Virus record (IMG/VR): IMGVR_UViG_3300045988_081431
Coordinates: 3,220 to 67,219 of that record
Reading direction: 5' to 3' (one strand)
Source: a virus
Length of the DNA: 64,000 nt
The number at the start of each line of letters is the position of its first letter. Position 1 is the first letter of the stretch. Under the pieces are notes generated by a model that was given only the letters and a program-made list of their open reading frames with translations, had not been told where the DNA came from and ran no database searches. The translations under genes were made by a program, and so were the position numbers. Shown piece after piece: positions 24,551-64,000 of this stretch.

Positions 24551-24629
24551 GGATGGTGGTCTTCTTTATCTCTCTAGCGGACAAGAGTGGATGTCCGATA
24601 CAGTCTGTTAAATATTCTACATAAATATA

Positions 24630-24668
24630 ATGGGGAGTATACCGTAATTGGTATACTCCCCATTTTTT
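24630..24668. terminator. bidirectional intrinsic terminator between lysis operon (+) and polymerase gene (-)
   Basis: 12-bp stem GGGGAGTATACC/GGTATACTCCCC, 6-nt loop, with an A-run on the left and TTTTTT on the right. Confidence 0.8.
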
Positions 24669-27600: not shown

Positions 27601-29065
27601 TTGAGTCAGCAAAGCATTTTGGATAAAATACATAATCTCCTTTTTCTAATCCACTCACAGGCATCCATTGTGGCTCTGGTTTTATTTTATGACAACATTT
27701 TTTCTTGCAATTAACTGAGCAATATTTTCGTAATTTTGTATTACCATTATAAACAACACATTCTTTTTGTTTGATTGCAAGGAATTTATGGTCATTGGTA
27801 TAGTTCATTGGGTCATTTGAAGACACTTTAATTGTAGTCAACGGTTCTTTAATATTATAAGAGAACACATTTTCTACTACTCTTGGATTACCTGTATGAG
27901 ATACCACAATATCTCCAACACGAATATCTTCAATATTTTTAGTCATTCCATTAGACATTAATACTTTAGTGCCTTTTTCAGAGCATCCACGACCATGTCC
28001 AACTGGAATATCACGCTTTCGACAAGCATCGAGAATATCTTTGGTAATCAACAAGTAGTCCATATACCCAACTTGTTCCAAAATGTCAATCTCGTGCAAC
28101 ACACGCTCGTCAACACGCTTTTTAAATTCAGGCGTGACCTTACCGATAATCTTTTGTTTATATCCATCACGCAACGCCTGTAGAAACACAGGTTTTACAT
28201 CCCCATCTTTAACAAACTTAGGGTACACATCTAGGTTGAAATCAACCTGTGTATTACATTTGTCAAAAATAACATTGGTGTTTTCAACCATTGTTTCAAC
28301 CATATCAACACCGAATTGTGGATACAGACGGTCAAACACTTGTGCTTCCGATTGGATAAAGAAGTCGTTTGAACCATAGTATTGGTCTTCATCATCATCT
28401 TGTGAACGACCACGGAATGCCTTGTGGAGTGCATAATCTTCTTCGTATACATAATGGCTGTCGCATGCGGCAATCAATGGAACATCGTATTTTGCACCCA
28501 TTTCTGCAACCATTTCATTAAACCGTTTTTGGTCTTCATGTTGGTACGTGTGGATTTCAAAATACAAGTCGTCACCAAAGATGTCTTTGAACTGCGGAAT
28601 CAGAGACTCACGGTTCTCACCCTTTAACCATCCACCCATGCATGCAGACGTGCAGATTAACCCCTCAGAATACTTGCGTATCATATCAAGGTCACATCTT
28701 GACTTGTAATAATAATGCTTGTGTGCTTCACTAGTGAGTTTGAACAAGTTCTCAAGTCCGACTTGATTTTTCGCAAGAAACAAGATATGATTATATGACT
28801 TGTCCTTAATGTGGACATCATATGTATAATACAATTCAGAACCCATCACAAGTTTTAAATCTGTGCCATGTTTCTTGTTGTATTTCTGTAGATGCACATA
28901 TGTTTCAATCAAGCCTGAACAACCATTATGGTCTGTAAGTGCAAACCCTCGTTGCCCAAGTTCGTGTACACGCTTAATGATGCCATCCACAGAACTGATT
29001 GCATCTTTCATCCCATAGTTTGAAAACTGAGAGTGTAGATGCAGATGAATAAAGTTATCTGACAT
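24674..29065 (-). CDS. dnaE: DNA polymerase III alpha subunit (DnaE-type) precursor containing an intein
   Basis: PHP motif HLHLHSQFS and the GFNKAHSQSYG block. The conserved GxGRGS motif is interrupted (GHGRG|C...HN|SVGG). AGGAGG SD. 1463 aa precursor, about 1051 aa after splicing. Confidence 0.9.
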   Translation of the reverse strand: MSDNFIHLHLHSQFSNYGMKDAISSVDGIIKRVHELGQRGFALTDHNGCSGLIETYVHLQKYNKKHGTDLKLVMGSELYYTYDVHIKDKSYNHILFLAKNQVGLENLFKLTSEAHKHYYYKSRCDLDMIRKYSEGLICTSACMGGWLKGENRESLIPQFKDIFGDDLYFEIHTYQHEDQKRFNEMVAEMGAKYDVPLIAACDSHYVYEEDYALHKAFRGRSQDDDEDQYYGSNDFFIQSEAQVFDRLYPQFGVDMVETMVENTNVIFDKCNTQVDFNLDVYPKFVKDGDVKPVFLQALRDGYKQKIIGKVTPEFKKRVDERVLHEIDILEQVGYMDYLLITKDILDACRKRDIPVGHGRGCSEKGTKVLMSNGMTKNIEDIRVGDIVVSHTGNPRVVENVFSYNIKEPLTTIKVSSNDPMNYTNDHKFLAIKQKECVVYNGNTKLRKYCSVNCKKKCCHKIKPEPQWMPVSGLEKGDYVFYPKCFADSTKAIEKINLRDYLDEYREENGLIFLGNQHFEAVKNKYNPELLVTGNLARFIGYFIGNGWTRKENNWNFGCAFNNKQGKYHQDYISLVQSLFGHDVSQSWNKRNTCVQIHTYSTVFAKVLKKMLGENASTKHIPDFLVHGTFEQRVNLLMGLFSTDGYVPKVITAKDKINYSSINYDLCSQVKFVLSTLGIDSYITKRVHANENWCNEYKTIIKPAYYERFVELFGEWFNCSLFKKTAKPNLDLDEYFVHQVHSIESVPQKDTTVYDIQVVVDHSYVGNQTIVHNSVGGCECAYLLDITSLDAITNNLYFERFANPNRVSAGDIDNDCSKVRRGEVIDYLEKKYKYVYQCRTFSYMKASGALKEAARCLNIDHNIADAYSKKIKDVSFDDDEDFHDNDLEYAKLDYVNDGKHPKMFELAKKLVGIMTGFGKHASAVIVSNQDITKYCSLEMQKNSQTKEETFVTSTNFKHLESMGFLKEDILGLRTLDVINDCVTMAGVKDTLDLAKLPWDDKETLDLLCRGDTLGVFQMKSFGMVRTLKSVAPKNFVDLIAVVALYRPACIITGMLDEYIERRKGKPFEYLDERLEEPLGETYGLMIFQEQIMRVCQIIAGYSMAEADTVRRAVGKKDHDLMQEITSEFVDRAVSNGTDPNVAQQILEQIIAAASYGFNKAHSQSYGYMAYITAYLKAHYPLEFYVATINSEDGNQEKILPYIQEMQRKGIKILPPDLRHSQREWTVEDGSVRVGLSYIKGINKIEKPHEYTIDAIFSKYSKLQLQGLVGSGALDFLGNTHELMALIPEYKSYDKDRKNALDKIHEWQSKLQQHEDTMYTNDGLFSDKELKSLDKKKQNIEKKIQEWTDKYNSIMLIERPNLSCRMPVVSLRYEYLGCTFEDPLKAYNTNLANGRDVKAIIVSDFKTKTTKAGKPMAYVFDHVGNKYVMWSNYLVELKVGVGYYIQVRGDTITKVKPLELKQNNA
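26750..27985 (-). mobile_element. intein (412 aa) with LAGLIDADG homing endonuclease domain
   Basis: Cys1 codon at 27985-27983 and the terminal HN at 26755-26750, followed by Ser+1. Block B is TNDHKF. LAGLIDADG motifs are LARFIGYFIGNGW and LLMGLFSTDGYV. Blocks F/G are VYDIQVVVDHSYVGNQTIVHN. Confidence 0.85.
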
Positions 29066-29794: not shown

Positions 29795-29824
29795 TGTTTA
29801 AAACAACTGAATAATCCAAAATCA

Positions 29825-29851
29825 ACCCAAGTCAAACGGCTTGGGTATTTT
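29825..29851 (+). terminator. intrinsic terminator after SSB gene
   Basis: 7-bp stem ACCCAAG/CTTGGGT, 8-nt loop, then ATTTT. Confidence 0.55.
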
Positions 29852-29904
29852 GGCGTACAAACAATTATGTTGAAAATTTTGTGTCTAAATTTTGGTTTTC
29901 GCTA

Positions 29905-29933
29905 TTGACAAAATACAACTTTTGTGATACCCT
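29905..29933 (+). promoter_or_regulatory. candidate promoter (TTGACA-17-TACCCT with TGn extension) firing into the repeat array
   Basis: Perfect -35 at 29905-29910 and TGa at 29925-29927. The -10 at 29928-29933 is weak. Confidence 0.4.
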
Positions 29934-29940
29934 ATCAAAC

Positions 29941-30062
29941 TTAAGTATTAATACATAAGAATACCTTAGTATATACCTAAGTATGAATACCTAAGTTTGC
30001 ATACTAGGGTATGAATACTTGGGTATGAATACATTGGTTATTCATACCTATGGTATTAATAC
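29941..30062. repeat. array of about 9 degenerate tandem repeats of ~14 bp (core GTATGAATAC / GTATTAATAC), iteron-like
   Basis: Units end in ATAC at 29954, 29964, 29976, 29990, 30004, 30018, 30032, 30047 and 30062. Further half-sites occur at 30124-30133 and ~30141. Confidence 0.8.
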
Positions 30063-30153
30063 TTAAGTCTTAAAACTGTAGTTCCCCATACATATGTTTT
30101 CACTCTCTGTTTTTCTACTTAAGGTATTCATACAGTAGTGGAATACTTGTTTG

Positions 30154-30194
30154 GTAACATTAGTATTCTCATTACATTCGAATACTAATGTTAC
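30154..30194. repeat. perfect 15-bp inverted repeat GTAACATTAGTATTC / GAATACTAATGTTAC with 11-nt spacer
   Basis: Arms at 30154-30168 and 30180-30194; contains the GTATTC/GAATAC iteron half-site. Confidence 0.8.
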
Positions 30195-30224
30195 AACGAC
30201 AAACCATATGAATTGCTTCGCAAT

Positions 30225-30248
30225 AATCGGCAAGCCGATTGATTTTTT
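30225..30248 (+). terminator. small intrinsic terminator upstream of the 30270 promoter
   Basis: 6-bp stem AATCGG/CCGATT, CAAG loop, then GATTTTTT. Confidence 0.5.
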
Positions 30249-30269
30249 CTTAGTCAGACAAAAACTTTC

Positions 30270-30298
30270 TTGACTATGAGAAACAGGTATGCTATAAT
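30270..30298 (+). promoter_or_regulatory. consensus sigma-A-type promoter (TTGACT-17-TATAAT)
   Basis: -35 at 30270-30275, -10 at 30293-30298. Confidence 0.75.
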
Positions 30299-30349
30299 GA
30301 GTGCATAACAAGTCAGAAACAAATTATTGACCGACAGGAGGAACAAATC

Positions 30350-34306: not shown

Positions 34307-34474
34307 ATGCGAGTTGTATCTTATGAACATTTGTTTGGCGACAACAAGTATGTATCAAACAAATATGAACAATATGTTGTTACAAAAGATGGTATTAAGT
34401 ATCTGCCATTAGACATTGTTGAAGAAATCGGTTTCGATTATGAACAATCTGCCGTTATGGAGGTTGAGTTCTAG
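34307..34474 (+). CDS. small hypothetical protein (55 aa, below ORF-track cutoff)
   Basis: GAGG SD 8 nt before the ATG. Stop TAG overlaps the GTG start of the next gene (TAGTG). Translation reads MRVVSYEHLFGDNKYVSNKYEQYVVTKDGIKYLPLDIVEEIGFDYEQSAVMEVEF. Confidence 0.5.
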   Translation: MRVVSYEHLFGDNKYVSNKYEQYVVTKDGIKYLPLDIVEEIGFDYEQSAVMEVEF

Positions 34475-35196
34475 TGAATATTTTAATCGCCTGTGAGGAG
34501 TCTCAAACGGTATGCAAAGCCTTTAGGGAACTTGGGTTTAATGCCTATAGTTGTGACATCGTGGAATGTTCTGGAGAACATCCAGAGTGGCACTTTAAGG
34601 TAGATATATTCGATGTTATCAAACGCAAGGGTGGAGTTACCCAAAGTGGTAATCTTGTGTTTGTTGACAAATGGGATTTAATGATTGCCCATCCGCCGTG
34701 TACATACTTGACTTCTAGTGGTGCAAAATGGTATTACCACCCTGATGACAAACATCTACCGATTGAAGACCGCAGACCACATCCAAAGTTTCCAAATCGT
34801 AAGAAAGACCAAGAAGATGGTGCGAACTTCTTTATGGCTCTTATGAATGCAAACATTGATTATATTGCGGTTGAAAACCCTGTTGGTGTTATGTCAACGA
34901 GATACCGCAAGCCAGACCAGATTGTACAACCGTATATGTTTGGCGATTCAGCACGTAAGACCACTTGTTTGTGGCTAAAGGGTCTACCATTATTGCATCC
35001 TACGGAGATAGTAGATGAGGGTGAGACTTTGACATTCAAAAGCGGCAAGCGTATGCAAAAGTGGATTTCAGATGCATTAACTGAAACGAAAACTGCCGAA
35101 GAACGCAGACGGTTACGCTCTAAGACTTTCAAGGGTATGGCACAAGCCATGGCTAAACAATGGGGCGACTATATTAAACAACAGGAGGATAAATGA
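34474..35196 (+). CDS. C5-cytosine-methyltransferase-like protein lacking a recognisable FxGxG SAM motif
   Basis: HPPCTYLTSSG (PC motif IV-like) and AVENPVG (ENV motif VI-like). The N-terminus ILIACEESQ replaces motif I. Confidence 0.45.
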   Translation: MNILIACEESQTVCKAFRELGFNAYSCDIVECSGEHPEWHFKVDIFDVIKRKGGVTQSGNLVFVDKWDLMIAHPPCTYLTSSGAKWYYHPDDKHLPIEDRRPHPKFPNRKKDQEDGANFFMALMNANIDYIAVENPVGVMSTRYRKPDQIVQPYMFGDSARKTTCLWLKGLPLLHPTEIVDEGETLTFKSGKRMQKWISDALTETKTAEERRRLRSKTFKGMAQAMAKQWGDYIKQQEDK

Positions 35197-36273: not shown

Positions 36274-37191
36274 ATGAAATATACAAACGGAAACGCCAGT
36301 ATTTGGCTTGGTTTACAAGATGGCACACGCATTATTGAATATCCAGACAATCAGGGTTTAATCTTAGATACACCACTCAATATTGATATTCGTGTATCTA
36401 CACAATGTCCATATGGGTATAATTCTATCACGAGAAAATCTACTTGTGAATTTTGTCACGAGTCTGCCCTAGTGAATGGACAAGAGTGTGACTACAATAG
36501 ATTAACTCAAGTGCTAACAGATGCAAAATTGCCACGTGGCACAGAAATTGCCCTTGGGGTTAATCAGGTCACAGACGATTTAATTCAATTCGTGAAAGAC
36601 TTATGGAAACTTGGGTTGATTGTAAACATTACCATGAACGAGCGTTATATTACTGAATTTGGCGACACAGGATTGTTACAACTAAAGCCATACATATTTG
36701 GTCTTGGTATCTCTTATCGCTCCTTACAGGGGTGTTTATCGCTACCAGATTGGATTGCAGATTATCCACACACGGTTATTCATGTAATCAATGGTATTGA
36801 CGACTTTAATGATGTCGTTGAACTTGGGGTTAAATACCGTAAGTTATTAATCCTTGGGGAAAAGGACTTTGGCTTTAATACAGGTAAAGTCAACTTGAAC
36901 ACCCCAAGTCATATCGAATGGAAATCTAATGTTATGCAATTAACGAAAATATTCGATGTTGTCTCATTCGACAACTTGGGGTTGCAACAATTAGAAATCC
37001 GTGGTAAAATAACAGATGAAGAATACAAAACCTTTTACCAAGGAGAACACTCCATGTATATCAATGCGGTGGAACAATACTACTCGCCATCTAGTCGGAC
37101 AAGAAACGGTATTAAACACTTTAATGAAATCTCTTTGGTAGATTATTTCCAAGATTGTGAAAGAAAGCAGGTATCTCATGAAACTAATTAG
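36274..37191 (+). CDS. Cys-motif (C-x12-C-x2-C-H) putative metalloenzyme; radical-SAM-like is only a hypothesis
   Basis: AGGAGAG SD. The motif IDIRVSTQCPYGYNSITRKSTCEFCHES lies near the N-terminus, followed by an alternating beta/alpha-like pattern. The canonical CxxxCxxC motif is absent. Confidence 0.3.
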   Translation: MKYTNGNASIWLGLQDGTRIIEYPDNQGLILDTPLNIDIRVSTQCPYGYNSITRKSTCEFCHESALVNGQECDYNRLTQVLTDAKLPRGTEIALGVNQVTDDLIQFVKDLWKLGLIVNITMNERYITEFGDTGLLQLKPYIFGLGISYRSLQGCLSLPDWIADYPHTVIHVINGIDDFNDVVELGVKYRKLLILGEKDFGFNTGKVNLNTPSHIEWKSNVMQLTKIFDVVSFDNLGLQQLEIRGKITDEEYKTFYQGEHSMYINAVEQYYSPSSRTRNGIKHFNEISLVDYFQDCERKQVSHETN

Positions 37192-38781: not shown

Positions 38782-39680
38782 ATGAAATTCATTGATTTAT
38801 TCGCTGGGATTGGCGGTTTTCATTCTGGTTTAACCAAAGCTGGTATGGAATGTGTTGGTTGGTGCGAACAAGATAAATACGCACAACAGTCATCCCGTGC
38901 GTTATATCCAACGGATAATCTTTGGTTTTCACCAGATGTTCGTGCATTAAGCGGTACAGAGATGCCGTATGCAGACCTGTGGTGCTTCGGTTTCCCATGT
39001 CAAGACGTTTCCATTGCTGGACTGAAAGGTGGCATGGGAAATACACGAAGCGGTTTATTTTATGAGGTCATGAGGTTATTAAATGAAACAGAACATAAAC
39101 CCAAATGGTTGCTTATTGAAAATGTTAAAAACCTCTTGTCAATTGACAACGGATGGGGATTTTACTCGGTTTTGTCTGAAATGGACAAAGCAGGGTATGG
39201 TGTCGCATGGCGTGTGTATAACACAAAAGACTTTGGACTTCCGCAAAACCGTGAAAGGGTGTTCATTGTCGGACATCTTGGAAACGAATGTCCATCCGAA
39301 GTATTATATCGACCAGACCAAAGCGAACAATCTATTATTCGACTCGGAAATCTCTTAAAGACTGAATCTTTTGGTGGTATCCACAAAGAGGTCGTGTGTA
39401 CTCACCAAGTGGGTTGTCTCCGACCGTTACTTGTATCAAGGGCGGCGGTCAAGAACCAAAGATTTTACTTAGTAAAAACCCCAATGTGATACGCAAGCTG
39501 ACCCCAAGGGAGTTCTGGCGATTACAGGGGTTTACAGACCAACAATTTGAAACCTGTGCGAAGATACAATCAGATGCACAGTTATATAAACAAGCTGGCA
39601 ATTCCGTCAGTATTCCCATTGTGTATGAACTTGGGAAGAATATTATTGAATGTCACAGGAGGTTACATGGCAATGGGTAA
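38782..39680 (+). pseudogene. dcm: DNA (cytosine-5)-methyltransferase split by a -1 frame change between motif VIII and motif IX
   Basis: Frame A carries FAGIGGF (I), GFPCQDVSIAG (IV), ENVKNL (VI) and QNRERVFIVG (VIII). Frame B, open from 39366, carries QRGRVYSPSGLSPTVT, RKLTPREFWRLQGF (IX) and AGNSVSIPIV (X). The frame switch must occur at about 39366-39390. Confidence 0.8.
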
Positions 39681-39935: not shown

Positions 39936-41093
39936 TTGAAACAATGTAAAGATTATAACGATTTGTTAATACAGAATGTTGACATTGGCTCTCTTGAGAC
40001 TGAACCCCTAGATATTACTTGTTTGAATGTTCTTCTTGAGGAGTATCCAAAGAAAGAAGACCAATATAAAAAGGCATCTCGGTTCTGTAAGTCAGTCACC
40101 GATAAAATGGTTCTTGCCGATATTGCCACAATGCTGGCAAAACGATGGGAGCGTTCCATTGAAGATGTCAAAAATTATCTCGATGTGACTGCAACGAGTG
40201 GTGAAGAACTTTGGGAAAAAGTCCATGGTTTTAATGACTCATTTGAAGACATGAAGACATTCATCGGTCAAGAGGGTGTTCCCCTTGGTTTTCCATCCTT
40301 GGATTTTGCAATCAATGGTGTTAAACGCAGAGAAATCGTGTTGTTGGGTGCATATACCAACCAAGGTAAGTCATTCTTTGCAGCCAAGGTTGCCGCACAT
40401 CGGTTAATGGACTCTAATGATAATGTCTTGATTTTCTCTTTGGAGATGCCACGAGGTCAATTTTTGGCTGAAATCGTCAAGGAAATTCTTGGGGTTGAAG
40501 AAGACGAGTTATTCGAGATGTTGCAAACAGAACAGGGTATCGAGATTTATTCCAAGGTGTCTGCTGTGTTAGACAAGCGTGTTCGTTTTGTTGATGAGCC
40601 GAATAAAACTATTGAAGACCTTGAGAAGATTACCGAGGTTTGTTATGCTAATGACTTCCCTGTAGATTTTGTTGTGTTCGACCACTTCCATTTGATACCT
40701 GACATTGATGATATTCCTGTGTTGTCTAAAAATGCAAACAAGATGAAAGAGTACGTTAAAAAGTTCAACTTGATTTTGTTTATGCTTTGCCAGTTCAACG
40801 AGGAATCTCAAAATACCTTTGGGAAAGAAAAAAGTAAGAAACCATATGAACCAATCTTGAGATACATCAAAGGTTCTAATGCGTTAAAAGCCATCGCAGA
40901 TATTATTCTGTTGTTGTGGCGACCATATATCACCGATACGCAACTTGATTTTGACGAAAGAGAGAAAGTCAAAAATCACACCTATGTTAAAATTGGTAAG
41001 ACTCGTAGAAAATTACGAGGACCAGCCAATATATTCCAATTCAAGTATGACGAGAAAACATCTCATTTGTCAGAGATTAATTATTTCTCATAA
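39936..41093 (+). CDS. dnaB: replicative DNA helicase (DnaB-like RecA-fold ATPase)
   Basis: Walker A GAYTNQGKS and Walker B-like VVFDHFHLI; TTG start; 385 aa. Confidence 0.7.
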   Translation: MKQCKDYNDLLIQNVDIGSLETEPLDITCLNVLLEEYPKKEDQYKKASRFCKSVTDKMVLADIATMLAKRWERSIEDVKNYLDVTATSGEELWEKVHGFNDSFEDMKTFIGQEGVPLGFPSLDFAINGVKRREIVLLGAYTNQGKSFFAAKVAAHRLMDSNDNVLIFSLEMPRGQFLAEIVKEILGVEEDELFEMLQTEQGIEIYSKVSAVLDKRVRFVDEPNKTIEDLEKITEVCYANDFPVDFVVFDHFHLIPDIDDIPVLSKNANKMKEYVKKFNLILFMLCQFNEESQNTFGKEKSKKPYEPILRYIKGSNALKAIADIILLLWRPYITDTQLDFDEREKVKNHTYVKIGKTRRKLRGPANIFQFKYDEKTSHLSEINYFS

Positions 41094-41119
41094 AATATGA
41101 CAAATATATAAATTAATAC

Positions 41120-41148
41120 TTGACTATGACGACTAGATGTGATATTAT
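41120..41148 (+). promoter_or_regulatory. sigma-A-type promoter (TTGACT-17-TATTAT with TGn) of the ncRNA/tRNA operon
   Basis: -35 at 41120-41125, TGa at 41140-41142, -10 at 41143-41148. Confidence 0.7.
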
Positions 41149-41154
41149 AATAGT

Positions 41155-41713
41155 GTACTAAGGGGGTTAGACAACCCTTAGTAAGCCTCCTTTCTTAACA
41201 TAGTCAACGGAGTAACATCCGTTGACACACATGGGTCGTGCAGGATGCAATCAACACACTTGATTTTGGGTTCAATTCCCAAGAGACCCAATAGCATAAA
41301 CGGTGCTTGCTACCGTGTCAAAAGTGAGCGTTCCATGTGACGAGAAAACATGGCAGAGACAACTGGGAACCATCACTATAGATGTAAAAGATGGGTCGCT
41401 TGGTTGATGTGCGACAAACAAACATCAAAAAACAGGTTACTGTTCAGCCTGTAGAATAAAAACAGGGTTGTGCCATTCCATAATCGCACCGTCAGACAAG
41501 ACGTAAATATCATATGTAAAAATGTAGAGCATTCCATTTTTACTGCCGTCAGACCAGACGTTAAAATCATGTAGTGCAGGCTGACATTAAAGTGTCTGCT
41601 ACGAGTGTACACATCTACCGCCGATGAGTATAGACGTATACGAACATAAGACATCGAGATTGCAATCTTTCGGTGGTCGAATGATACAACAAGGATTGTA
41701 TGGCGGTAGACAT
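41155..41713 (+). ncRNA. large highly structured non-coding RNA candidate (~560 nt; ROOL/GOLLD-class hypothesis)
   Basis: No credible ORF. Many strong helices by eye: 41158-81, 41203-26, 41300-16 and 41333-53. A pseudoknot pairs 41395-99/41411-15 and 41404-10/41422-28. A further helix pairs 41516-24/41535-43. A closing helix 41614-22/41702-10 encloses three hairpins. The segment abuts tRNA-Ser. Confidence 0.55.
41233..41290 (+). ncRNA. tRNA-like minihelix (acceptor + T-arm) with truncated body
   Basis: T-arm TTGGG-TTCAATT-CCCAA. Acceptor-like pairing GGGTC/GACCC. A 17-nt stem-loop AATCA-ACACACT-TGATT is present, but there is no D-arm and no CCA. Confidence 0.45.
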
Positions 41714-51205: not shown

Positions 51206-51604
51206 ATGAAAACATTTGTACGTATCAAAGATAAGGTCTTCGAAGACAGCTACAAGAAATATGACGAAACATCCAATGTGTTAACCAAGTTGTTAGAGAC
51301 GTTTGAAGATGACACGTTTCAAACGGTTGAAGACTTACTTGGGTATATATATCTGTTACGTGATAACGTTAGTTCTCGCTATAGACCAAAATACGTTCGC
51401 TTGCGTAGAATGTTTAAAGCTAAGGGGTTACGACTCAATCAAGTTGCTGCCTATTTGGGTATTAGTCCATCTAGCCTATCCAATAGCATGAACGGAGAAC
51501 GATTATTCACTGAAAAAGAAAAAGACGACATCTTTAGATTGCTTGGTTTAACGTATTCATCTCAGATGGATAGGGAGTTATTCTATGACGAACTCGATGA
51601 TTGA
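51206..51604 (+). CDS. XRE-type helix-turn-helix protein
   Basis: The LRLNQVAAYLGISPSSLSNSMNGERLFT HTH lies in the C-terminal half. Confidence 0.6.
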   Translation: MKTFVRIKDKVFEDSYKKYDETSNVLTKLLETFEDDTFQTVEDLLGYIYLLRDNVSSRYRPKYVRLRRMFKAKGLRLNQVAAYLGISPSSLSNSMNGERLFTEKEKDDIFRLLGLTYSSQMDRELFYDELDD

Positions 51605-52298
51605 ACTACATCAATGCGATTGTCGTAACATATTGCCATCCATTAAGACACAACTACAGGAAGAAAACAAGCCATATATCATTGTTTCAGACCCTCCGTT
51701 CAACATTGGGTACCATTATAATGGCTATCACGACAGAATGAGCGATGGCGATTACAGACAGATGTTAAAACAGGTGTTTAACCCATCGCATCCATCTGTA
51801 TGTATCCATTACCCAGAACAGTTGTATCAACTTGCGATTGATATTGACAGACCACCGACTCGTGTGGTATCATGGGTGTACAATACAAACAACCGCAGAC
51901 AACATCGTGATATTGCGTTCTTTGGTATAATGCCTGATTTTAAACAGGTATTGCAACCGTATAAGAACCCAAACGATAAACGGATTAAACGGTTGATTGA
52001 AAACGGCTCTAAAGGCACACCGATTTACGATTGGTGGAACATCAATATCGTTAAGAACACCTCACGAGAAAAAACCGAGCATCCATGTCAGATGCCATTA
52101 CAGGTAATGAAAAACATTATTGGTATTCTGCCAGAGGGGTATACCATTATTGACCCATTTATGGGTTCTGGTACAACAGGTGTTGCAGCCGTTGAATTGG
52201 GTCGAGATTTCATCGGTATTGAATTAGACCCATTGTATTTTGATATCGCAAAACAACGGATTTTTAACGCACGAGAAACACAGGAGAAAAACATATGA
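51585..52298 (+). CDS. beta-class DNA amino-methyltransferase (N6-adenine or N4-cytosine)
   Basis: Motif IV SDPPFNIGY precedes motif I IIDPFMGSGTTGVAA. Confidence 0.8.
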   Translation: MTNSMIELHQCDCRNILPSIKTQLQEENKPYIIVSDPPFNIGYHYNGYHDRMSDGDYRQMLKQVFNPSHPSVCIHYPEQLYQLAIDIDRPPTRVVSWVYNTNNRRQHRDIAFFGIMPDFKQVLQPYKNPNDKRIKRLIENGSKGTPIYDWWNINIVKNTSREKTEHPCQMPLQVMKNIIGILPEGYTIIDPFMGSGTTGVAAVELGRDFIGIELDPLYFDIAKQRIFNARETQEKNI

Positions 52299-58131: not shown

Positions 58132-58410
58132 ATGTCTAAATTACCAGAATTTCTACAGGGAAAATCTTGCTTCGATGGTAGACCGCACCCAGCAGTACCA
58201 GAAGAATTTCTAAAGGGGTTCTACCAACGAGAAGCCGAACGCAGAAAACATATGAAACAATGCGAGTATTGTGGTCGTTGGTTTAAACCCTGCAGCCATA
58301 ACCAAAAGTATTGTACAACGACTTGTAAACAAAAGCACTACAGTCAGATATATAACGAGCAAAAAGAATTATTGATTAATGAAGAACTACAGAATGGAGA
58401 TTGGATGTAA
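58132..58410 (+). CDS. zinc-ribbon protein
   Basis: GGAGG SD; CEYCGRWFKPCSHNQKYCTTTCKQKHY. Confidence 0.55.
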   Translation: MSKLPEFLQGKSCFDGRPHPAVPEEFLKGFYQREAERRKHMKQCEYCGRWFKPCSHNQKYCTTTCKQKHYSQIYNEQKELLINEELQNGDWM

Positions 58411-59511: not shown

Positions 59512-59921
59512 AAACCAAAAACGACTCCATGGGAACACTAAAATTAAAACTAGAGATTACTCCAGAGAACATCGAACACCTTAGGGCATTGTTTGTAAAG
59601 CCTGAAAATAAGATTTCTAGTGGTGTTCCGACCATGCTATTTAATGGCAAGCCTGTAAATAGTTCTGTAGAAGATTTACCAACTATTGCTACGCTAAACA
59701 CTAAATACGGTTATCTCAGAGATGGCGATACAGCTATTGCACGTTCTAATGATAAACATGTTTATGTCGGTGTAGTCACTAGATTTACAGAAAAGACAAT
59801 ATATGTTAAAAATGTAATTTATGCTTTTGTTAATGAGTCAACAAATAACATTGGTATTCAATGTTTCAGCACTCATAGCTTTCCTGTTCAGGAGTTATGT
59901 GGTATAACCAAATGCCAATAA
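59508..59921 (+). CDS. hypothetical protein
   Basis: AGGAGA SD; 137 aa; last gene before the first long non-coding region. Confidence 0.6.
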   Translation: MKTKNDSMGTLKLKLEITPENIEHLRALFVKPENKISSGVPTMLFNGKPVNSSVEDLPTIATLNTKYGYLRDGDTAIARSNDKHVYVGVVTRFTEKTIYVKNVIYAFVNESTNNIGIQCFSTHSFPVQELCGITKCQ

Positions 59922-60000
59922 CCCAAATCCAAAAAATTAAAAACCAAAAATTAAAAAACAAGATTTCAAAAAATAAAACCCAAGAAAAACACATTGGTTA

Positions 60001-60030
60001 TTGACAACACAAACCGTCTTGTGTTATTCT
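60001..60030 (+). promoter_or_regulatory. candidate promoter (TTGACA-18-TATTCT with TGn) preceded by phased A-tracts
   Basis: -35 at 60001-60006, TGt at 60022-24, -10 at 60025-60030. A-tracts run through 59925-59995. The spacer contains the inverted repeat ACACAA/TTGTGT. Confidence 0.5.
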
Positions 60031-60167
60031 ATAAATGACAACAGATTGCAAACGCATGTAAACACCAACATTGTGTGATGCATCCCAAACACATCACACA
60101 GGCAATCATACCACCATTCACCACACGGAAATGTTCATGCGTTTCATCTACTGTTGTCACAGAAATC

Positions 60168-60290
60168 AAATACCACCGCATAAAAACCATGGCGAACACC
60201 TGCATGAAACAAACGTGCATCCGCAGCATATATGCTTATACATTATACGTTCGCTATGTGTCCACGTTTTATGCGGTGGTATTTTTTTTA
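60168..60290 (+). repeat. 18-bp perfect inverted repeat (AAATACCACCGCATAAAA / TTTTATGCGGTGGTATTT) spaced by 81 bp and followed by a T-run
   Basis: Arms at 60168-60185 and 60267-60284, followed by a T-run through 60289. Confidence 0.75.
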
Positions 60291-60455
60291 TTGGTATATG
60301 CCGTGGTATTGAATAAACGTACATATGTGTCGATGATATATGTATTTATCTATTGATGTGTATTGTGGTGTGTTCATGGGTTGTTATATTGATAAACCAC
60401 GGATGATACGATTAACATCAACAATCGAACATCTGTTTGTTTTAATCTTCTATGA

Positions 60456-60493
60456 TGCCACGTGGCAGCACCCATAAATGAACATATGTTCAT
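60456..60493. repeat. two perfect palindromes: TGCCACGTGGCA (12 bp) and ATGAACATATGTTCAT (16 bp)
   Basis: Located at 60456-60467 and 60478-60493. Confidence 0.8.
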
Positions 60494-60645
60494 ACGACCG
60501 CATCATCTCGTGAAATTCATTTATTTGCGTTGTACGGTGGTTTTCACATATGGGGTATACAAATATACCACCGTGGATATAAACACACCGTATAAACGAT
60601 TTAAATCAATTCTGTGGTGGTTTTTACTGTTTATATATATGATTT

Positions 60646-60766
60646 TGTCCACGGATTTTTACATTTGTATATATCTATATATATATGTCCACGGTATTTT
60701 ACATATGTATATATATATATATATATCCCACCTATTATATATACGTTCATATATTGATATACATAT
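60646..60766. repeat. three ~40-bp tandem units (GTCCACGG / GTCCACGG / TCCCACCT box + T-rich + TA-rich) including an (AT)n microsatellite at 60708-60726
   Basis: Boxes at 60647, 60687 and 60727, giving a 40-bp period. There is an uninterrupted alternating T/A run of 19 nt. Confidence 0.75.
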
Positions 60767-60802
60767 TTGTTTTTTCAAGCTATTACATATTGACCGCACG
60801 TG

Positions 60803-60855
60803 TGTTCGCCACGACCTGCAAGACCGCCTGCAACCAGCGAACATTTGTTCTGTTT
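60803..60855 (+). terminator. GC-rich hairpin followed by T-rich tract (terminator-like)
   Basis: Stem TGTTCGC/GCGAACA (60803-09 / 60837-43). The loop contains a direct CCTGCAA repeat, followed by TTTGTTCTGTTT. Confidence 0.35.
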
Positions 60856-61027
60856 AATACATTTAAAAAATTCGATTAGATTGAAAACTTTAGTTGGCTA
60901 AAGGTCGAAAACTTTCGATATGGTCTCATGCAATTCGGTTGTACACAATATAATTGCATGGGTAAACCCTGCGTTTGACGGTTTACCGTCATAGCTTTAA
61001 GTTATGACTAACCATAGATTTTTTCTA

Positions 61028-61057
61028 TTATGCAGATTGCCCCATTAGGTGTATAAT
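61028..61057 (+). promoter_or_regulatory. candidate promoter (weak -35, TATAAT -10) for the 61128 gene
   Basis: TATAAT at 61052-61057. The leader hairpin ACGAAAGA/TCTTTCGT lies at 61066-61090. Confidence 0.45.
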
Positions 61058-61127
61058 GAGTGTAACGAAAGATAATAAATGTCTTTCGTAGGTCTTTTAT
61101 AATTTTATATTGAAAGGGGTAAAACTC

Positions 61128-61406
61128 ATGAAAGAATTTTCTAGTTTATCAGCATTAAGCGAGTACGTATATAATAATGACTTATACGATACTCATAAGA
61201 AAATTACAATTATCTATAGTAAGGATAATTGGGAAAAGCCTTTCACAAAAACTCAGCGAACTTATGAGACTAACACCGACCAAAAGTATTTTAATGTAAA
61301 TGCTTGTGGCTGTAGTCTCTTTGGGGATTGCTTAGATGGTACCGATTTAGGCGTTCGCCTAGATTGGTATAATTGGAAAGCGGAAAAGGTTATTTTGCAT
61401 ATCTAG
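61128..61406 (+). CDS. hypothetical protein
   Basis: AGGGG SD-like element before ATG 61128; 92 aa. Confidence 0.55.
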   Translation: MKEFSSLSALSEYVYNNDLYDTHKKITIIYSKDNWEKPFTKTQRTYETNTDQKYFNVNACGCSLFGDCLDGTDLGVRLDWYNWKAEKVILHI

Positions 61407-61414
61407 GAAAATAT

Positions 61415-61438
61415 TGGCGGTAGTGATCACTACCGCCA
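61415..61438. repeat. 24-nt perfect palindrome TGGCGGTAGTGATCACTACCGCCA
   Basis: Self-complementary over 61415-61438, with no adjacent T-run on the + strand. Confidence 0.75.
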
Positions 61439-61468
61439 CATTATCAGAACTGAAAGAGGGAAAATACT

Positions 61469-61753
61469 ATGATGTACTTTATTATTGAACAAGAATATAA
61501 TGCTATGGACTTAATCGATACGCTAATTAATCAAGCAGATACAACGACAAAAACTATTTTGGAATTGTCTCAAGAATATCAATTAGAAGAGTGCTTGCTT
61601 GATGTAGTTGATAAGAATATAGGCGAACACGTTGCACCGTATGAAATTATTCAAGATATTGACGAAAACCCACAAGAATATATTAAGGCGTTACTTGATA
61701 ATGTTGATGAAGACTATAGGGAAGACTTAGAGGAGGAACTACAAGAACTATAA
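61469..61753 (+). CDS. small highly acidic protein
   Basis: AGAGGG SD; 94 aa, D/E-rich with few K/R. Confidence 0.6.
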   Translation: MMYFIIEQEYNAMDLIDTLINQADTTTKTILELSQEYQLEECLLDVVDKNIGEHVAPYEIIQDIDENPQEYIKALLDNVDEDYREDLEEELQEL

Positions 61754-61758
61754 GGAAT

Positions 61759-61790
61759 AAAGGCGGTACGCAAGTACCGCCTTTAGTTTT
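61759..61790 (+). terminator. intrinsic terminator with GCAA tetraloop
   Basis: 11-bp stem AAAGGCGGTAC/GTACCGCCTTT, GCAA loop, then AGTTTT. Confidence 0.75.
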
Positions 61791-61896
61791 GCCGTTGTAT
61801 TCTCAATTAGCATCAGCAAATGAGAAAAGCCAGCGTATTTGATAATTATTCTCAAATAAAAGTCTCTATATTTGCGTTGTATGGTCGTTTTCATAT

Positions 61897-62562
61897 GTTC
61901 CCCTTATGATTGTACATAAAACACCTAAACGAGCATATAAGCGAAAATACACGATTTTATGACATATGACTTTTTGCGTGTTTTAGCGTTTGTTTGTTTT
62001 TATGTACAAAATATATGAATGTGTACATGTACAATAGACATCACCACCATAGGCAGCTTAAATGAGAAATATTCTCAATACCATAAATCCTGCCAAATGG
62101 TACAATTAAATTGCATACAATCGATTATGACATATGAATGAGTGTTCATATGTACATATGTTAATCATGAGTTTTTCGCATAGGTATAAACATGAATAGT
62201 TGCTCATATGAATAACCGTTCATGCATGCGTTTTGGGAATACATGACGCATGAACATATGAACATACATTCATATGAAAAAACTGTTGCATGAAATTCGA
62301 TTGTATGCAATCATATTGTACGACCACCACCTACAAAAACCATATCGAAAATTTTGAATGTCAATCAATAATGATTACATTTGTCAATAACACATCGAAA
62401 ACATTCGATATACAACAGTATCCACCACAGAAAAACAAATTCATAACTTATGTATGCACACAAAAGACCTCTTGCGTATTCTCATTTAGACAATACCGCT
62501 AAAATTCATTTAAATGCGTTCTACGGCGTTTTTGGTCTTTTACATACAATCATAAGGGGAAC
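61897..62562. repeat. 18-bp perfect inverted repeat pair (GTTCCCCTTATGATTGTA / TACAATCATAAGGGGAAC) bracketing ~630 bp of repeat-rich non-coding DNA
   Basis: Arms at 61897-61914 and 62545-62562. The interior holds further imperfect inverted repeats (62099-62126 vs 62294-62322) and many CATATG-centred palindromes. Confidence 0.8.
62063..62077. repeat. palindrome TGAGAA-ATA-TTCTCA; ATTCTCA half-site recurs about 5 times in this region
   Basis: 62063-62077. Other ATTCTCA copies lie near 61799, 61847, 62478 and 62612. Confidence 0.65.
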
Positions 62563-62655
62563 TCTTTAGATACACCCTATAGGCTAAATAAATGAACGTT
62601 TTATTGAGAGACATTCTCATTTACCCAGCGTTTTTACATATTTTTCAAATTTTTG

Positions 62656-62684
62656 TTGACATGTGTAAAAATCTGTGGTATTTA
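62656..62684 (+). promoter_or_regulatory. candidate promoter (TTGACA-17-TATTTA with TGn)
   Basis: -35 at 62656-62661, TGg at 62676-78, -10 at 62679-62684. Confidence 0.5.
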
Positions 62685-62765
62685 TATATATTCATTAAAC
62701 ATGGGTATTTTGTCGGTGTTCGTTTGTCATAACCTTAGGCTATGGATAACCATAGATAAAAACTA

Positions 62766-62795
62766 TTGTACATTGTACCGCTTAAGCGGTACAAT
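62766..62795 (+). promoter_or_regulatory. candidate promoter (TTGTAC-18-TACAAT) whose spacer and -10 form a 24-bp perfect palindrome (operator-like)
   Basis: ATTGTACCGCTTAAGCGGTACAAT at 62772-62795 is its own reverse complement. The CTATGG-ATAA-CCATAG palindrome at 62740-62755 lies just upstream. Confidence 0.55.
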
Positions 62796-62841
62796 AAGAC
62801 CATAAATAAATAATCTTTATTTTTAACGGAGGTTTTAGCCT

Positions 62842-62940
62842 ATGGATTTAGAAGTTTTAAGAAATATCGGAGGTTGCATATTTGCGACTTTCTTAATTCA
62901 ACTTATTAGATGGGTGTATTTCACCCTAGGAGGTGAATAA
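62842..62940 (+). CDS. small hydrophobic peptide (32 aa) / leader ORF
   Basis: GGAGG lies 9 nt before the ATG. The stop is 1 nt before the next start. Sequence MDLEVLRNIGGCIFATFLIQLIRWVYFTLGGE. Confidence 0.35.
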   Translation: MDLEVLRNIGGCIFATFLIQLIRWVYFTLGGE

Positions 62941-63730: not shown

Positions 63731-63822
63731 GAGGTAAGTGCTTTGTCTTTAATCTTATTATCATTAATCGTTGTATTTATTCAACGGTCGAAAAACCAAA
63801 CATTATAACATAAGAATTTTAA

Positions 63823-63853
63823 CCACGGTTAGACCGTTTGTGTTTAACCGTGG
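63823..63853. other. 9-bp stem hairpin CCACGGTTA/TAACCGTGG (no T-run)
   Basis: Arms at 63823-63831 and 63845-63853. It carries the same CCACGG/CCGTGG core as the 60-kb iterons. Confidence 0.5.
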
Positions 63854-63890
63854 AATATAATCAGTAATGATCACATCGGAGGGAACACTT

Positions 63891-64000
63891 ATGCAATCAG
63901 TAGAATTATACAATAGAGACAATGAAATGTATTGGAACATAGAAGAATTTTTAAAAGTCTTTAGCTATAAGAATGTACAAGAATTTTGTGCTTATGAACG
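63891..64000 (+). CDS. hypothetical protein, N-terminal part (runs off window)
   Basis: GGAGGG lies 8 nt before the ATG. The frame MQSVELYNRDNEMYWNIEEFLKVFSYKNVQEFCAYE is open to the end of the window. Confidence 0.45.
   Translation, partial: MQSVELYNRDNEMYWNIEEFLKVFSYKNVQEFCAYE

What the first reader, a model, noticed from the sequence alone, without database searches (positions are those of the whole stretch)
60290..60780. Origin-like architecture: at least 10 CCAC(C/G)G boxes in both orientations, perfect palindromes, three 40-bp tandem units and an (AT)n tract
CCAC-core boxes recur on both strands: TACCACCG, GCCGTGGTAT, AACCACGGAT, ACGGTGGTT, ACCACCGTGGAT, TGTGGTGG and GTCCACGG twice. 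Two perfect palindromes are present: TGCCACGTGGCA and ATGAACATATGTTCAT. Three units with a 40-bp period (60647, 60687, 60727) each couple a box to a T-rich and TA-rich stretch. These culminate in a 19-nt alternating TA run, which is an obvious DNA-unwinding element. GTCCACGG partially resembles a DnaA box (TTATCCACA, core TCCAC). The track ORFs that give YIYIYI peptides here are artefacts of the TA repeats.
Basis: partly seen in the sequence, partly recalled or inferred. Interest (0 to 1): 0.65.

Follow-up and report, generated by a model that had tools for sequence, protein, structure and literature searches.

The report
Conserved origin-like non-coding module in phage
The flagged stretch is the core of a conserved 1.2-kb non-coding module in an uncultured human-gut phage: a newly recognised structured small RNA gene followed by repeated CCAC(C/G)G boxes and the most easily melted DNA in the window; it may be a replication origin, but that is unproven and a second, equally origin-like site lies among the replication genes.

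Summary
CCAC(C/G)G boxes are about 20-fold enriched, though the strict count is 7 in the stated interval and 9 in the gap, not 10. Both palindromes, the 40-bp repeats (the best tandem repeat in the window) and the 19-nt TA run are present. The box cluster and an adjacent low-stability element are conserved in more than 40 related contigs from two clades.

The interpretation needs revision:
- No DnaA boxes are present.
- Two boxes just left of the interval are the arms of an intrinsic terminator. It ends a promoter-driven, about 255-nt structured RNA (fold z = -8.9, with covariation).
- The left half of the interval (60,290-60,510), including both palindromes, is clade-specific. The conserved core is 60,510-60,870.
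- No initiator protein was identified.
- A rival iteron-like gap lies at 29.8-30.35 kb, next to the SSB and polymerase genes.

Best reading (about 0.35): a protein-binding site next to a DNA-unwinding element, that is an origin or an SPP1 oriR-like element, shielded from upstream transcription by the RNA terminator. Regulatory and packaging functions remain open. Interest is moderate.

The parts
59925..59992 (+). Run of A-tracts (period about 14 nt) upstream of the promoter, resembling an UP element. It contains the string AAGATTTCAAAAAATAAAAC, which is shared by both clades.
   Evidence: TRF rows at 59904-59978. Nearly invariant in relatives. Used as a probe. The UP-element function is inferred.
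60001..60030 (+). Sigma-70/sigma-A-type promoter-like site, TTGACA-18-TATTCT, with TG before the second hexamer.
   Evidence: Best promoter match of the right end. The divergent clade has TTGACA/TTGACG-17-TATAAT/TACAAT at the same place.
60036..60289 (+). Candidate small RNA of about 255 nt. It has a 5' hairpin domain (60036-60160) and a long 3' hairpin (60171-60281), followed by T8 (60282-60289), which together form an intrinsic terminator. Boxes 60173(+) and 60274(-) are the arms of the terminator stem.
   Evidence: RNA fold -85.1 kcal/mol, z = -8.85; the opposite strand gives z = -5.92. RNAalifold finds 56 pairs, 7 with compensatory changes, plus strand-specific G.U pairs. 97.8% of cells are paired against 28-51% in slid controls, and 0 of 500 shuffles reach the covariation score. 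The terminator hairpin is -44.1 kcal/mol. No Rfam match.
60290..60510 (.). Clade-specific spacer. It contains boxes 60301(-) and 60397(+) and the perfect palindromes TGCCACGTGGCA (60456-60467) and ATGAACATATGTTCAT (60478-60493).
   Evidence: Low conservation within the clade. Not alignable between clades.
60513..60611 (.). Inverted pair of a 31-nt element (60513-60544 on +, 60581-60611 on -) around a central ATACCACCGTGGAT double box (60568/60571). Box 60535(-) lies inside the left arm.
   Evidence: the repeat finder I3 and D3. Conserved in both clades, with the two arms drifting independently rather than co-varying. Further copies at 61860 and 62502 and at other intergenic sites in relatives.
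60610..60625 (.). Degenerate box CTGTGGTGG followed by T5. In L009 and the divergent clade this position holds CCACGG in the opposite orientation, also followed by a T-run.
   Evidence: Cross-clade alignment.
60632..60761 (+). About three 40-bp units, each with a box (GTCCACGG at 60647 and 60687, degenerate TCCCACC at about 60726), a T-run and TA-rich DNA. Includes the 19-nt TA run at 60708-60726.
   Evidence: TRF score 139, the best in the window. Units are conserved in both clades with variable spacing.
60620..60770 (.). Least stable duplex segment of the window, a candidate DNA-unwinding element.
   Evidence: Nearest-neighbour stability profile ranks it first at window sizes 40, 60, 100 and 150. 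The property is conserved in relatives.
60762..60870 (.). Nearly invariant block: TTTGTTTTTTCA, ATTACATATTGACCGC, then a GC-rich stretch flanked by GTTCGC...GCGAAC. It is non-coding, because relatives differ by a 1-nt indel.
   Evidence: Conservation map; alignment. TTTGTTTTTTCA and TTGACCGC are shared with the divergent clade.
60878..60925 (.). TCGAAAACTTT repeats and small hairpins. Copy number varies between relatives.
   Evidence: the repeat finder D12; search; alignment; fold z = -5.75 for 60860-61100.
61027..61089 (+). Promoter-like -10 element (TATAAT at 61050-61055) and a leader hairpin (61065-61089) for the next gene (61128-61406). This marks the right boundary of the module.
   Evidence: Read from sequence. 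Hairpin listed. The divergent clade has TGgTATAAT at the equivalent place. Promoter function is inferred.

Best explanation
The flagged interval is the middle of a conserved, modular non-coding region (59,922-61,127). It lies at the end of the rightward early/replication gene block of an uncultured siphovirus-like phage of about 65-69 kb found in human-gut metagenomes.

The module has two units. The first is a small-RNA gene: a strong host-type promoter drives a structured RNA of about 255 nt that ends in a very strong intrinsic terminator. The second is about 600 nt with no ORF and no convincing promoter. Its cross-clade core (about 60,510-60,870) holds an inverted pair of a 31-nt element around a CCACCGTGG palindrome, then three to four 'box + T-run' units in TA-rich DNA that is the easiest duplex in the window to melt, and then an invariant T-tract and GC-rich block.

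The most likely mechanism is inferred, not shown. An unidentified, probably phage-encoded protein would bind the boxes and the 31-nt elements and use the adjacent unwinding element to open the DNA. The site would then be a replication origin, or an SPP1 oriR-like secondary origin or fork-control site. The upstream terminator would shield it from read-through transcription.

Shown: the motifs, their enrichment and conservation, the RNA structure and terminator, and the duplex instability. Inferred: protein binding, DNA opening and replication initiation.
For: - Box enrichment is about 20-fold, and CCACGG/CCACCG are the top motifs in an unbiased k-mer test in three lineages.
- Clusters of 5-12 boxes persist in 11 IMG/VR relatives, 8 divergent-clade loci and 21 metagenome relatives, even where the flanks no longer align.
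- At one site the box flips orientation between clades while its position and T-run are kept. The two 31-nt arms drift independently. Both points suggest protein sites rather than an RNA stem.
- 60,620-60,770 is the least stable duplex in the window. The equivalent segment ranks first or second in most relatives and starts 660-730 nt after the UP element in both clades.
- The 40-bp array is the best tandem repeat in the window.
- The core is only weakly structured as RNA (z = -2.7), has no convincing promoter and is preceded by a -44 kcal/mol terminator. It is therefore probably not transcribed and acts as DNA.
- The non-coding block is as conserved as the flanking genes, at 77-86% identity.
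- Precedent: SPP1 oriR is a direct-repeat plus AT-rich origin in a long intergenic region far from the replication genes, bracketed by transcription signals (PMC6316719).
Against: - No initiator or box-binding protein was identified. The structure model of the best candidate was unusable, with pLDDT 41.8.
- The site is about 19 kb from the DnaB gene and 28 kb from the primase gene.
- A rival gap at 29,795-30,349, beside the SSB and polymerase genes, has about 11 tandem 14-nt units, is AT-rich and conserved, and shares no motif with this site.
- No DnaA boxes are present.
- Some boxes are plainly RNA stem arms. In the distant relative L053 the boxes are just the arms of an ordinary terminator.
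- The 31-nt, CATATGAACAT and TCGAAAAC motif families also occur in other intergenic regions of the right-end gene cassettes, which hints at transcriptional control.
- Nucleotide skew is uninformative.
- The T5 iss region shows that an origin-like repeat region need not be an origin (10.1101/866236).
Confidence: 0.35

Rival explanations
1. Transcriptional control hub. The boxes, 31-nt elements and palindromes would be operator or roadblock sites for a phage regulator (or RNA-level control elements). They would govern the switch between the early/replication block and the right-end cassettes of small acidic genes, and the small RNA would be part of that circuit. One version resembles P4 CI RNA with seqA/seqC: an RNA carrying box sequences that pairs with complementary boxes in a downstream leader.
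For: - The module lies exactly at a transcription-unit boundary. Consensus promoters dot 29-58 kb, with a terminator and new promoters here.
- The 31-nt element, CATATGAACAT inverted repeats and TCGAAAAC palindromes recur in other intergenic regions of the right end.
- A conserved inverted box pair lies directly upstream of a TATAAT that lacks a -35 hexamer, before the gene starting at 63893.
- Boxes occur in both orientations inside the small RNA and downstream of it, so RNA-RNA pairing is possible.
Against: - In the cluster the boxes overlap neither the small-RNA promoter nor the next gene's promoter.
- The 40-bp units lack an acceptable -10 hexamer (no T at the last position; read).
- Boxes do not recur upstream of terS/TerL, where late control would be expected.
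- The strong terminator should keep the downstream boxes largely untranscribed.
- No regulator with a recognisable DNA-binding domain is encoded nearby.
- This reading does not explain why extreme duplex instability is conserved at a fixed position.
Confidence: 0.25
2. Packaging recognition site (pac) for a headful terminase. Repeated short boxes on both sides of a bendable, AT-rich cleavage region would be bound by the small terminase, as in the P1 pac hexamers or SPP1 pacL/pacR.
For: - TerL is most similar (33-36% identity) to Mu-like headful terminases.
- Relatives' contigs close on themselves with 55- and 64-nt overlaps, consistent with circular permutation.
- Short boxes in both orientations flank an AT-rich segment.
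- In Mu-like phages pac lies far from the terminase genes (general knowledge, not tested here).
Against: - The site is about 8.5 kb upstream of TerL and about 8 kb from terS. In most non-transposable pac phages the site lies in or next to terS (general knowledge).
- Contig ends of relatives are scattered and do not coincide here. The one contig that ends inside the TA repeats is an incomplete assembly.
Confidence: 0.1
3. Entirely RNA-level element. The whole gap would be a long structured leader or a set of non-coding RNAs, and the boxes would simply be the GC-rich cores of successive hairpins or terminators, with no DNA-level role.
For: - Many boxes come as nearby inverted pairs (60173/60274, 60301/60397, 60535/60568, 60571/60649).
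- Six boxes are followed by T-runs on the + strand.
- The 60,480-60,599 window folds better on the + strand (z = -5.1 against -0.2).
- In L053 and in the small RNA the boxes are terminator arms.
Against: - Only the first hairpin with a T-run is a convincing terminator. The others need loose structures of 86-114 nt.
- 60,293-60,860 as a whole folds at only z = -2.7.
- The direct boxes in the 40-bp units have no conserved pairing partner.
- The 31-nt arms do not co-vary.
- No promoter lies downstream of the terminator.
Confidence: 0.1
4. T5 iss-like DNA-entry or other non-replicative cis site. This would be a conserved repeat-rich non-coding region next to host-takeover genes that acts during genome injection or circularisation.
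For: [quoted passage not shown]
- It is duplicated in part as a second block (61,754-62,932), with genes inserted between the two blocks.
- It lies beside small acidic early-type genes (10.1101/866236).
Against: - T5 iss lies in a fixed terminal repeat. Here the assemblies are circular or permuted and no fixed end was detected.
- The paired DnaA boxes that define the conserved T5 iss structure are absent.
Confidence: 0.05

Closest known systems
SPP1 oriR / oriL (Bacillus subtilis siphovirus SPP1)
   Same: Direct repeats plus an AT-rich unwinding element. oriR lies in one of the longest intergenic regions, far from the replication genes, bracketed by transcription signals and next to moron genes. 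The phage is a lytic Firmicute-type siphovirus with a DnaB-family helicase (PMC6316719).
   Different: - SPP1's two origins share the same gp38-binding repeats. The two candidate sites here share no motif.
- No gp38-like origin-binding protein was found.
- No sequence similarity to any cultured phage, SPP1 included.
- The flanking small RNA gene has no SPP1 counterpart that I know of.
Iteron-type theta origins (lambda ori, plasmid iteron origins)
   Same: Repeated short binding sites at roughly helical-phase spacing (about 40 bp) next to an AT-rich, easily melted segment. Repeats plus an AT-rich region are the generic hallmarks of such origins (reviewed by Rajewska et al. 2012, as cited in PMC7145576).
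   Different: - Only 2-3 good direct units are present.
- The boxes are 6-8 nt, not 17-22 nt, and occur in both orientations.
- The site is not inside or beside an initiator gene.
- There are no DnaA boxes.
T5 injection stop signal (iss) region
   Same: [quoted passage not shown] It is partly duplicated with genes inserted between the copies, lies beside early host-takeover genes, and has been described as origin-like without being the origin (10.1101/866236).
   Different: T5 iss lies in a fixed terminal repeat and is defined by paired DnaA boxes. Neither feature is found here.
Non-coding origins of lactococcal and streptococcal phages (the 'Per' elements; phage c2 transcribed ori)
   Same: In c2 the origin is associated with an early promoter and its transcript.
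   Different: They usually lie adjacent to the replication genes. There is no sequence similarity, and function here is untested.
P4 CI RNA with seqA/seqC (RNA-RNA transcription control)
   Same: From my own knowledge: a small structured RNA carries a short sequence that is repeated in complementary form in the neighbouring non-coding leader. Here box sequences occur both in the small RNA and downstream of it.
   Different: In P4 all sites lie on one transcript. Here a strong terminator separates the RNA from the downstream boxes. There is no sequence or structural similarity, and the parallel is untested.

Membership tests
Iteron + DUE replication origin (lambda/SPP1/plasmid type) | Three or more repeated initiator-binding sites (iterons) | tested here: met
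   7-9 strict boxes and 13 CCAC cores. About three 40-bp units. Conserved across clades. Binding itself is untested.
Iteron + DUE replication origin (lambda/SPP1/plasmid type) | Adjacent AT-rich DNA-unwinding element | tested here: met
   60,620-60,770 is the least stable duplex in the window. The property is conserved in relatives. Actual unwinding is untested.
Iteron + DUE replication origin (lambda/SPP1/plasmid type) | Cognate origin-binding initiator encoded by the element, usually nearby | tested here: inconclusive
   No initiator was recognised by Pfam or PHROGs among 40 proteins. The 210-aa candidate is restricted to this clade and its model had pLDDT 41.8. Many ORFs remain of unknown function.
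Iteron + DUE replication origin (lambda/SPP1/plasmid type) | Replication initiates here (marker-frequency peak, autonomous or phage-dependent replication of the fragment) | not testable with these tools
   No read data or experiments were available. GC skew and four-fold-site skew are uninformative.
SPP1-type dual origins | Both origin copies carry the same initiator-binding repeats | tested here: not met
   GTATKAATAC units occur at 29.9-30.1 kb but not at 60 kb. No CCAC boxes occur in the 30-kb gap of 13 relatives.
DnaA-dependent (oriC-like) origin | Cluster of DnaA boxes TTATCCACA / TTWTNCACA | tested here: not met
   No match at 1 mismatch or fewer in the gap, and the genome-wide count is at chance level (31 observed against 26 expected). 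No TTWTNCACA in the gap, and matches at 2 mismatches or fewer are near background density.
Promoter/terminator-bounded small RNA gene (applies to 60,001-60,290) | Promoter, thermodynamically exceptional fold, covariation, intrinsic terminator | tested here: met
   Expression is untested. No Rfam family matches.
T5 iss-like region | Location in a fixed terminal repeat, with paired DnaA boxes in conserved inverted repeats | tested here: not met
   Assemblies are circular or permuted and contig ends are scattered. No DnaA boxes.
pac site of headful phages | Terminase cut site or series-initiation end maps here, usually within or next to terS | not testable with these tools
   The site is about 8.5 kb upstream of TerL. 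No virion read data were available, and contig ends are uninformative.
Type III toxin-antitoxin antitoxin-like tandem RNA repeats (ToxI-like) | Regular tandem repeats of about 34-45 nt between a promoter and terminator, directly upstream of a toxin gene | tested here: not met
   Unit spacing is not conserved: 40 nt here, and 38 and 69 nt in L048. There is no promoter directly upstream. There is no downstream toxin-like gene.

The most novel reading that the evidence does not exclude
The small RNA and the downstream DNA site form one system built on a shared CCAC(C/G)G motif. The RNA's stems, made of boxes in both clades despite different sequences, would either mimic and titrate the box-binding initiator or pair with the melted origin. 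This would be an RNA-regulated phage replication origin of a kind not described for tailed phages. The same phage carries a second unit of the type 'promoter - repeat-packed structured RNA - terminator' at 29.9-30.25 kb, so this could be a general design in this phage family.
Probability: 0.08. Interest if true: 0.75.

Novelty: new member of a known kind. Interest (0 to 1): 0.42.

Why it matters
Origins and other cis-acting sites of uncultured gut phages are essentially unknown, and they cannot be annotated by homology. This module gives a defined, conserved candidate: boxes, an unwinding element and a new structured small RNA, present in more than 40 related contigs. It could be tested as soon as a host is found, or by read-depth analysis of existing metagenomes.

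The work also shows that repeats plus AT-rich DNA do not identify an origin uniquely. The same genome holds two such sites, and part of the flagged 'origin' signal comes from an RNA terminator.

Tried and rejected
- DNA similarity to cultured phages (near and distant modes) and to plasmids found nothing.
- Rfam, at gathering and permissive thresholds, returned only noise.
- DnaA boxes are absent.
- GC skew and skew at four-fold degenerate sites show no shift at 30 or 60 kb.
- Contig ends of relatives, tested as evidence of physical termini, are scattered. Two contigs are circular with k-mer-sized overlaps.
- A series of intrinsic terminators, proposed to explain the 'box + T-run' sites, fails: only the first is convincing.
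- Tandem sigma-A promoters in the 40-bp units are rejected. No spacing gives an acceptable -10 hexamer (reading), and the scan lists none.
- The boxes are not late-promoter activator sites, since none lie upstream of terS/TerL.
- A candidate binding protein was sought by Pfam and PHROGs on neighbouring genes and replication-module ORFs. Nothing turned up beyond an insignificant zinc-ribbon hit.
- A deep homology search on the 210-aa ORF found only clade-restricted relatives. The AlphaFold model had pLDDT 41.8, so no fold search was run.
- Host identification through bacterial genomes gave only chance matches of an A-rich 20-mer.
- Closest cultured phages by TerL or polymerase are under 37% identical and carry no usable annotation.
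- A ToxI-like antitoxin array and a parS-like palindrome (TGCCACGTGGCA) were rejected, because neither the unit spacing nor the palindrome is conserved.

Full report
**Context**

The window is most of the genome of an uncultured siphovirus-like phage. It encodes a large terminase (473-2161), portal, tape measure protein, a PolIII-alpha-like polymerase that is the only gene on the minus strand (24674-29065), a Gp2.5-like SSB, a primase, a DnaB-type helicase, several DNA methyltransferases and four tRNAs. No cultured phage is similar at the DNA level. TerL and the polymerase are under 37% identical to anything cultured. Related contigs of 58-72 kb come from human, including gut, metagenomes. Two of them close on themselves with 55- and 64-nt overlaps. 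Strong Shine-Dalgarno sites and TTGACA-17-TATAAT promoters suggest a Firmicute host; this is an inference.

The finding lies in the longest ORF-free gap of the window, 59,922-61,127. This gap sits between the last gene of a long rightward block with many consensus promoters (29-59.9 kb) and a set of small, AT-rich gene cassettes. It is about 8.5 kb upstream of TerL on the circular map.

**Checking the observation**

- Boxes. Strict CCAC[CG]G occurs 48 times in the window and 9 times in 60,090-60,800, about 20-fold enriched. Seven of these lie inside the stated coordinates, where there are 13 CCAC cores against 2.7 expected. Elsewhere the motif is almost always an in-frame GGT-GG Gly-Gly codon pair. 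An unbiased k-mer test ranks CCACGG and CCACCG first among motifs that are not simple repeats, here and in two divergent relatives.
- Palindromes and TA run. Both perfect palindromes and the 19-nt TA run are present.
- 40-bp repeat. It is the highest-scoring tandem repeat in the window.
- Unwinding claim. A nearest-neighbour stability profile puts 60,620-60,770 first at every window size tested.
- DnaA resemblance. It does not hold.

**What else is there**

Immediately left of the interval is the best promoter-like site of the right end (60001-60030), preceded by A-tracts. From the predicted start, 60,036-60,292 folds as RNA with z = -8.85. The fold has a 5' hairpin domain and a long 3' hairpin of -44 kcal/mol followed by T8. 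Boxes 60173 and 60274 are the arms of that terminator.

Nine relatives support 56 base pairs, 7 with compensatory changes, plus G.U pairs that work only on the + strand. With controls, 97.8% of cells are paired against 28-51% when partners are slid, and 0 of 500 shuffles reach the covariation score. The opposite strand folds less well. A divergent clade (TerL 91%) has the same promoter and a shorter RNA of about 185 nt with the same two-domain design. Its stems are again built from boxes. No Rfam family matches. This is a new candidate small RNA, and expression is untested.

**Anatomy of the flagged interval**

Within the closest clade, conservation is blocky rather than box-specific. The whole non-coding block is as conserved as the neighbouring genes.

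The cross-clade alignment is more informative:
- 60,290-60,510, including both perfect palindromes, is clade-specific.
- From about 60,510 the clades share a 31-nt element, its inverted copy, three to four 'box + T-run' units in TA-rich DNA, then TTTGTTTTTTCA and TTGACCGC.
- At one position the box flips orientation between clades while its place and its T-run are kept.
- The two 31-nt arms deviate from their consensus independently instead of co-varying.

Both of the last two points argue for protein sites rather than an RNA stem. As RNA, 60,293-60,860 is only weakly structured (z = -2.7). It has no convincing promoter, and only the first 'hairpin + T-run' is a credible terminator. The stretch is therefore most simply read as untranscribed, cis-acting DNA.

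In 21 further metagenomic relatives there are 5-12 boxes within about 730 nt of the promoter's UP element. The least stable 100-mer starts 660-730 nt downstream in both clades, even where no long TA run exists.

**Weighing the origin hypothesis**

In favour:
- Repeated sites and an unwinding element are conserved as an architecture.
- The site is insulated from upstream transcription.
- There is a real precedent in SPP1 oriR, a repeat plus AT-rich origin in a long intergenic region far from the replication genes (PMC6316719).

Against:
- No initiator was recognised. A structure model of one candidate was unusable.
- The site is far from the replication genes.
- Nucleotide skews are uninformative.
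- A second gap, 29,795-30,349, is at least as origin-like. It lies between the SSB gene and the following replication genes and close to the polymerase gene. It is AT-rich and carries about 11 tandem units of about 14 nt with a GTAT(G/T)AATAC core (34 matches in the window against 13.7 expected, 13 of them in this gap). It is conserved in 13 relatives. It has a similar layout of promoter, strongly folding repeat-rich segment and terminator (z = -8.3 on + and -7.4 on -). The two sites share no motif, unlike SPP1's two origins.
- The 31-nt, CATATGAACAT and TCGAAAAC motif families recur in other intergenic regions of the right end, including a second non-coding block at 61,754-62,932. A conserved inverted box pair lies just upstream of a TATAAT at 63,856. 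Both hint at transcriptional control.
- The T5 iss region is a documented case of a conserved, origin-like repeat region that is not an origin (10.1101/866236).

**Other rivals**

A packaging site cannot be excluded. TerL is of the Mu-like headful type, but the site is about 8 kb from the terminase genes and the contig ends of relatives do not coincide here. A T5 iss-like role lacks the fixed ends and DnaA boxes that define it. A purely RNA-level reading fails.

**Verdict**

The pattern is real, non-random and conserved. The DnaA link is wrong. Part of the signal is an RNA terminator belonging to a new small RNA gene. Half of the interval is not conserved. The genome also contains a competing candidate. 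Only read-depth, termini or binding data can decide between these readings.

Noticed in passing
window 60001-60289 (+): A new candidate structured small RNA of about 255 nt with its own promoter and a very strong intrinsic terminator. It is supported by covariation in two clades and has no Rfam match.
   Followed up: yes
window 29795-30349: A second origin-like gap beside the SSB and polymerase genes. In order it has a terminator after the SSB gene, a promoter-like site (TTGACA-17-TGaTACCCT), about 11 tandem units of about 14 nt (GTAT(G/T)AATAC core), a perfect 15-bp hairpin (30156-30196) and a terminator (30224-30241). It folds very strongly on both strands and is conserved in 13 relatives.
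   Followed up: partly
window 61754-62932: A second gene-poor block that repeats motif families of the first: the 31-nt element at 61860 and 62502, CATATGAA...TTCATATG inverted repeats at 62131-62276, and TCGAAAAC at 62345 and 62395. It also has long inverted repeats (62100-62124 with 62297-62321). Relatives such as L003 lack genes 61128-61753 and have a single fused non-coding block, which suggests recombination between the two modules.
   Followed up: partly
window 63823-63861: A conserved inverted box pair, CCACGGTTA-N13-TAACCGTGG, lies immediately upstream of a TATAAT with no -35 hexamer, before the gene starting at 63893. The whole roughly 70-nt block is invariant in 7 relatives. It could be an operator or activator site, or a 9-bp hairpin.
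   Followed up: partly
window 63753-63818 (+): A tiny ORF with a good Shine-Dalgarno site and a TTG start encodes a 21-aa hydrophobic peptide (LSLILLSLIVVFIQRSKNQTL). It may be a small membrane peptide.
   Followed up: no
window 24629-24664 and 24674-29065 (-): The 1463-aa PolIII-alpha-like polymerase is the only clear minus-strand gene. It is bounded by a bidirectional 16-bp terminator hairpin on one side and by divergent consensus promoters (29102 on +, 29135 on -) on the other.
   Followed up: no
window 41094-41713: A gap of about 620 nt lies between the DnaB gene and the tRNA cluster. It contains two 25-nt direct repeats (41489 and 41546), one intergenic CCACCG box (41671) and one of the least stable duplex segments of the window (41060-41159).
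   Followed up: no
window 58132-58410 (+): A 92-aa protein has a CxxC...CxxxC zinc-ribbon signature and only weak, sub-threshold NinG/DUF6076 and HNH-type hits. It is the only nearby protein with any hint of nucleic-acid binding.
   Followed up: partly
L006 (contig IMGVR_UViG_3300028959_000005), end of locus, equivalent to window 60674: This relative's contig breaks exactly inside the TA-rich 40-bp repeats, which probably reflects assembly fragility at the repeat rather than a genome end.
   Followed up: partly
L053 300-1700: The most distant relative (TerL 64%) shows cassettes of small acidic genes. Each cassette has a consensus TTGACA-17-TGnTATAAT promoter, a conserved leader (AGTTATTTATAAGC...) and an ordinary terminator whose arms happen to be CGGTGG/CCACCG. 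This supports the view that the genes upstream of the terminase are early cassettes.
   Followed up: partly
window 34474-35196, 38782-39489, 51585-52298: There are at least three DNA methyltransferase genes, plus a radical-SAM/Fe-S oxidoreductase-like gene (36274-37191). This suggests extensive DNA modification or anti-restriction functions.
   Followed up: no
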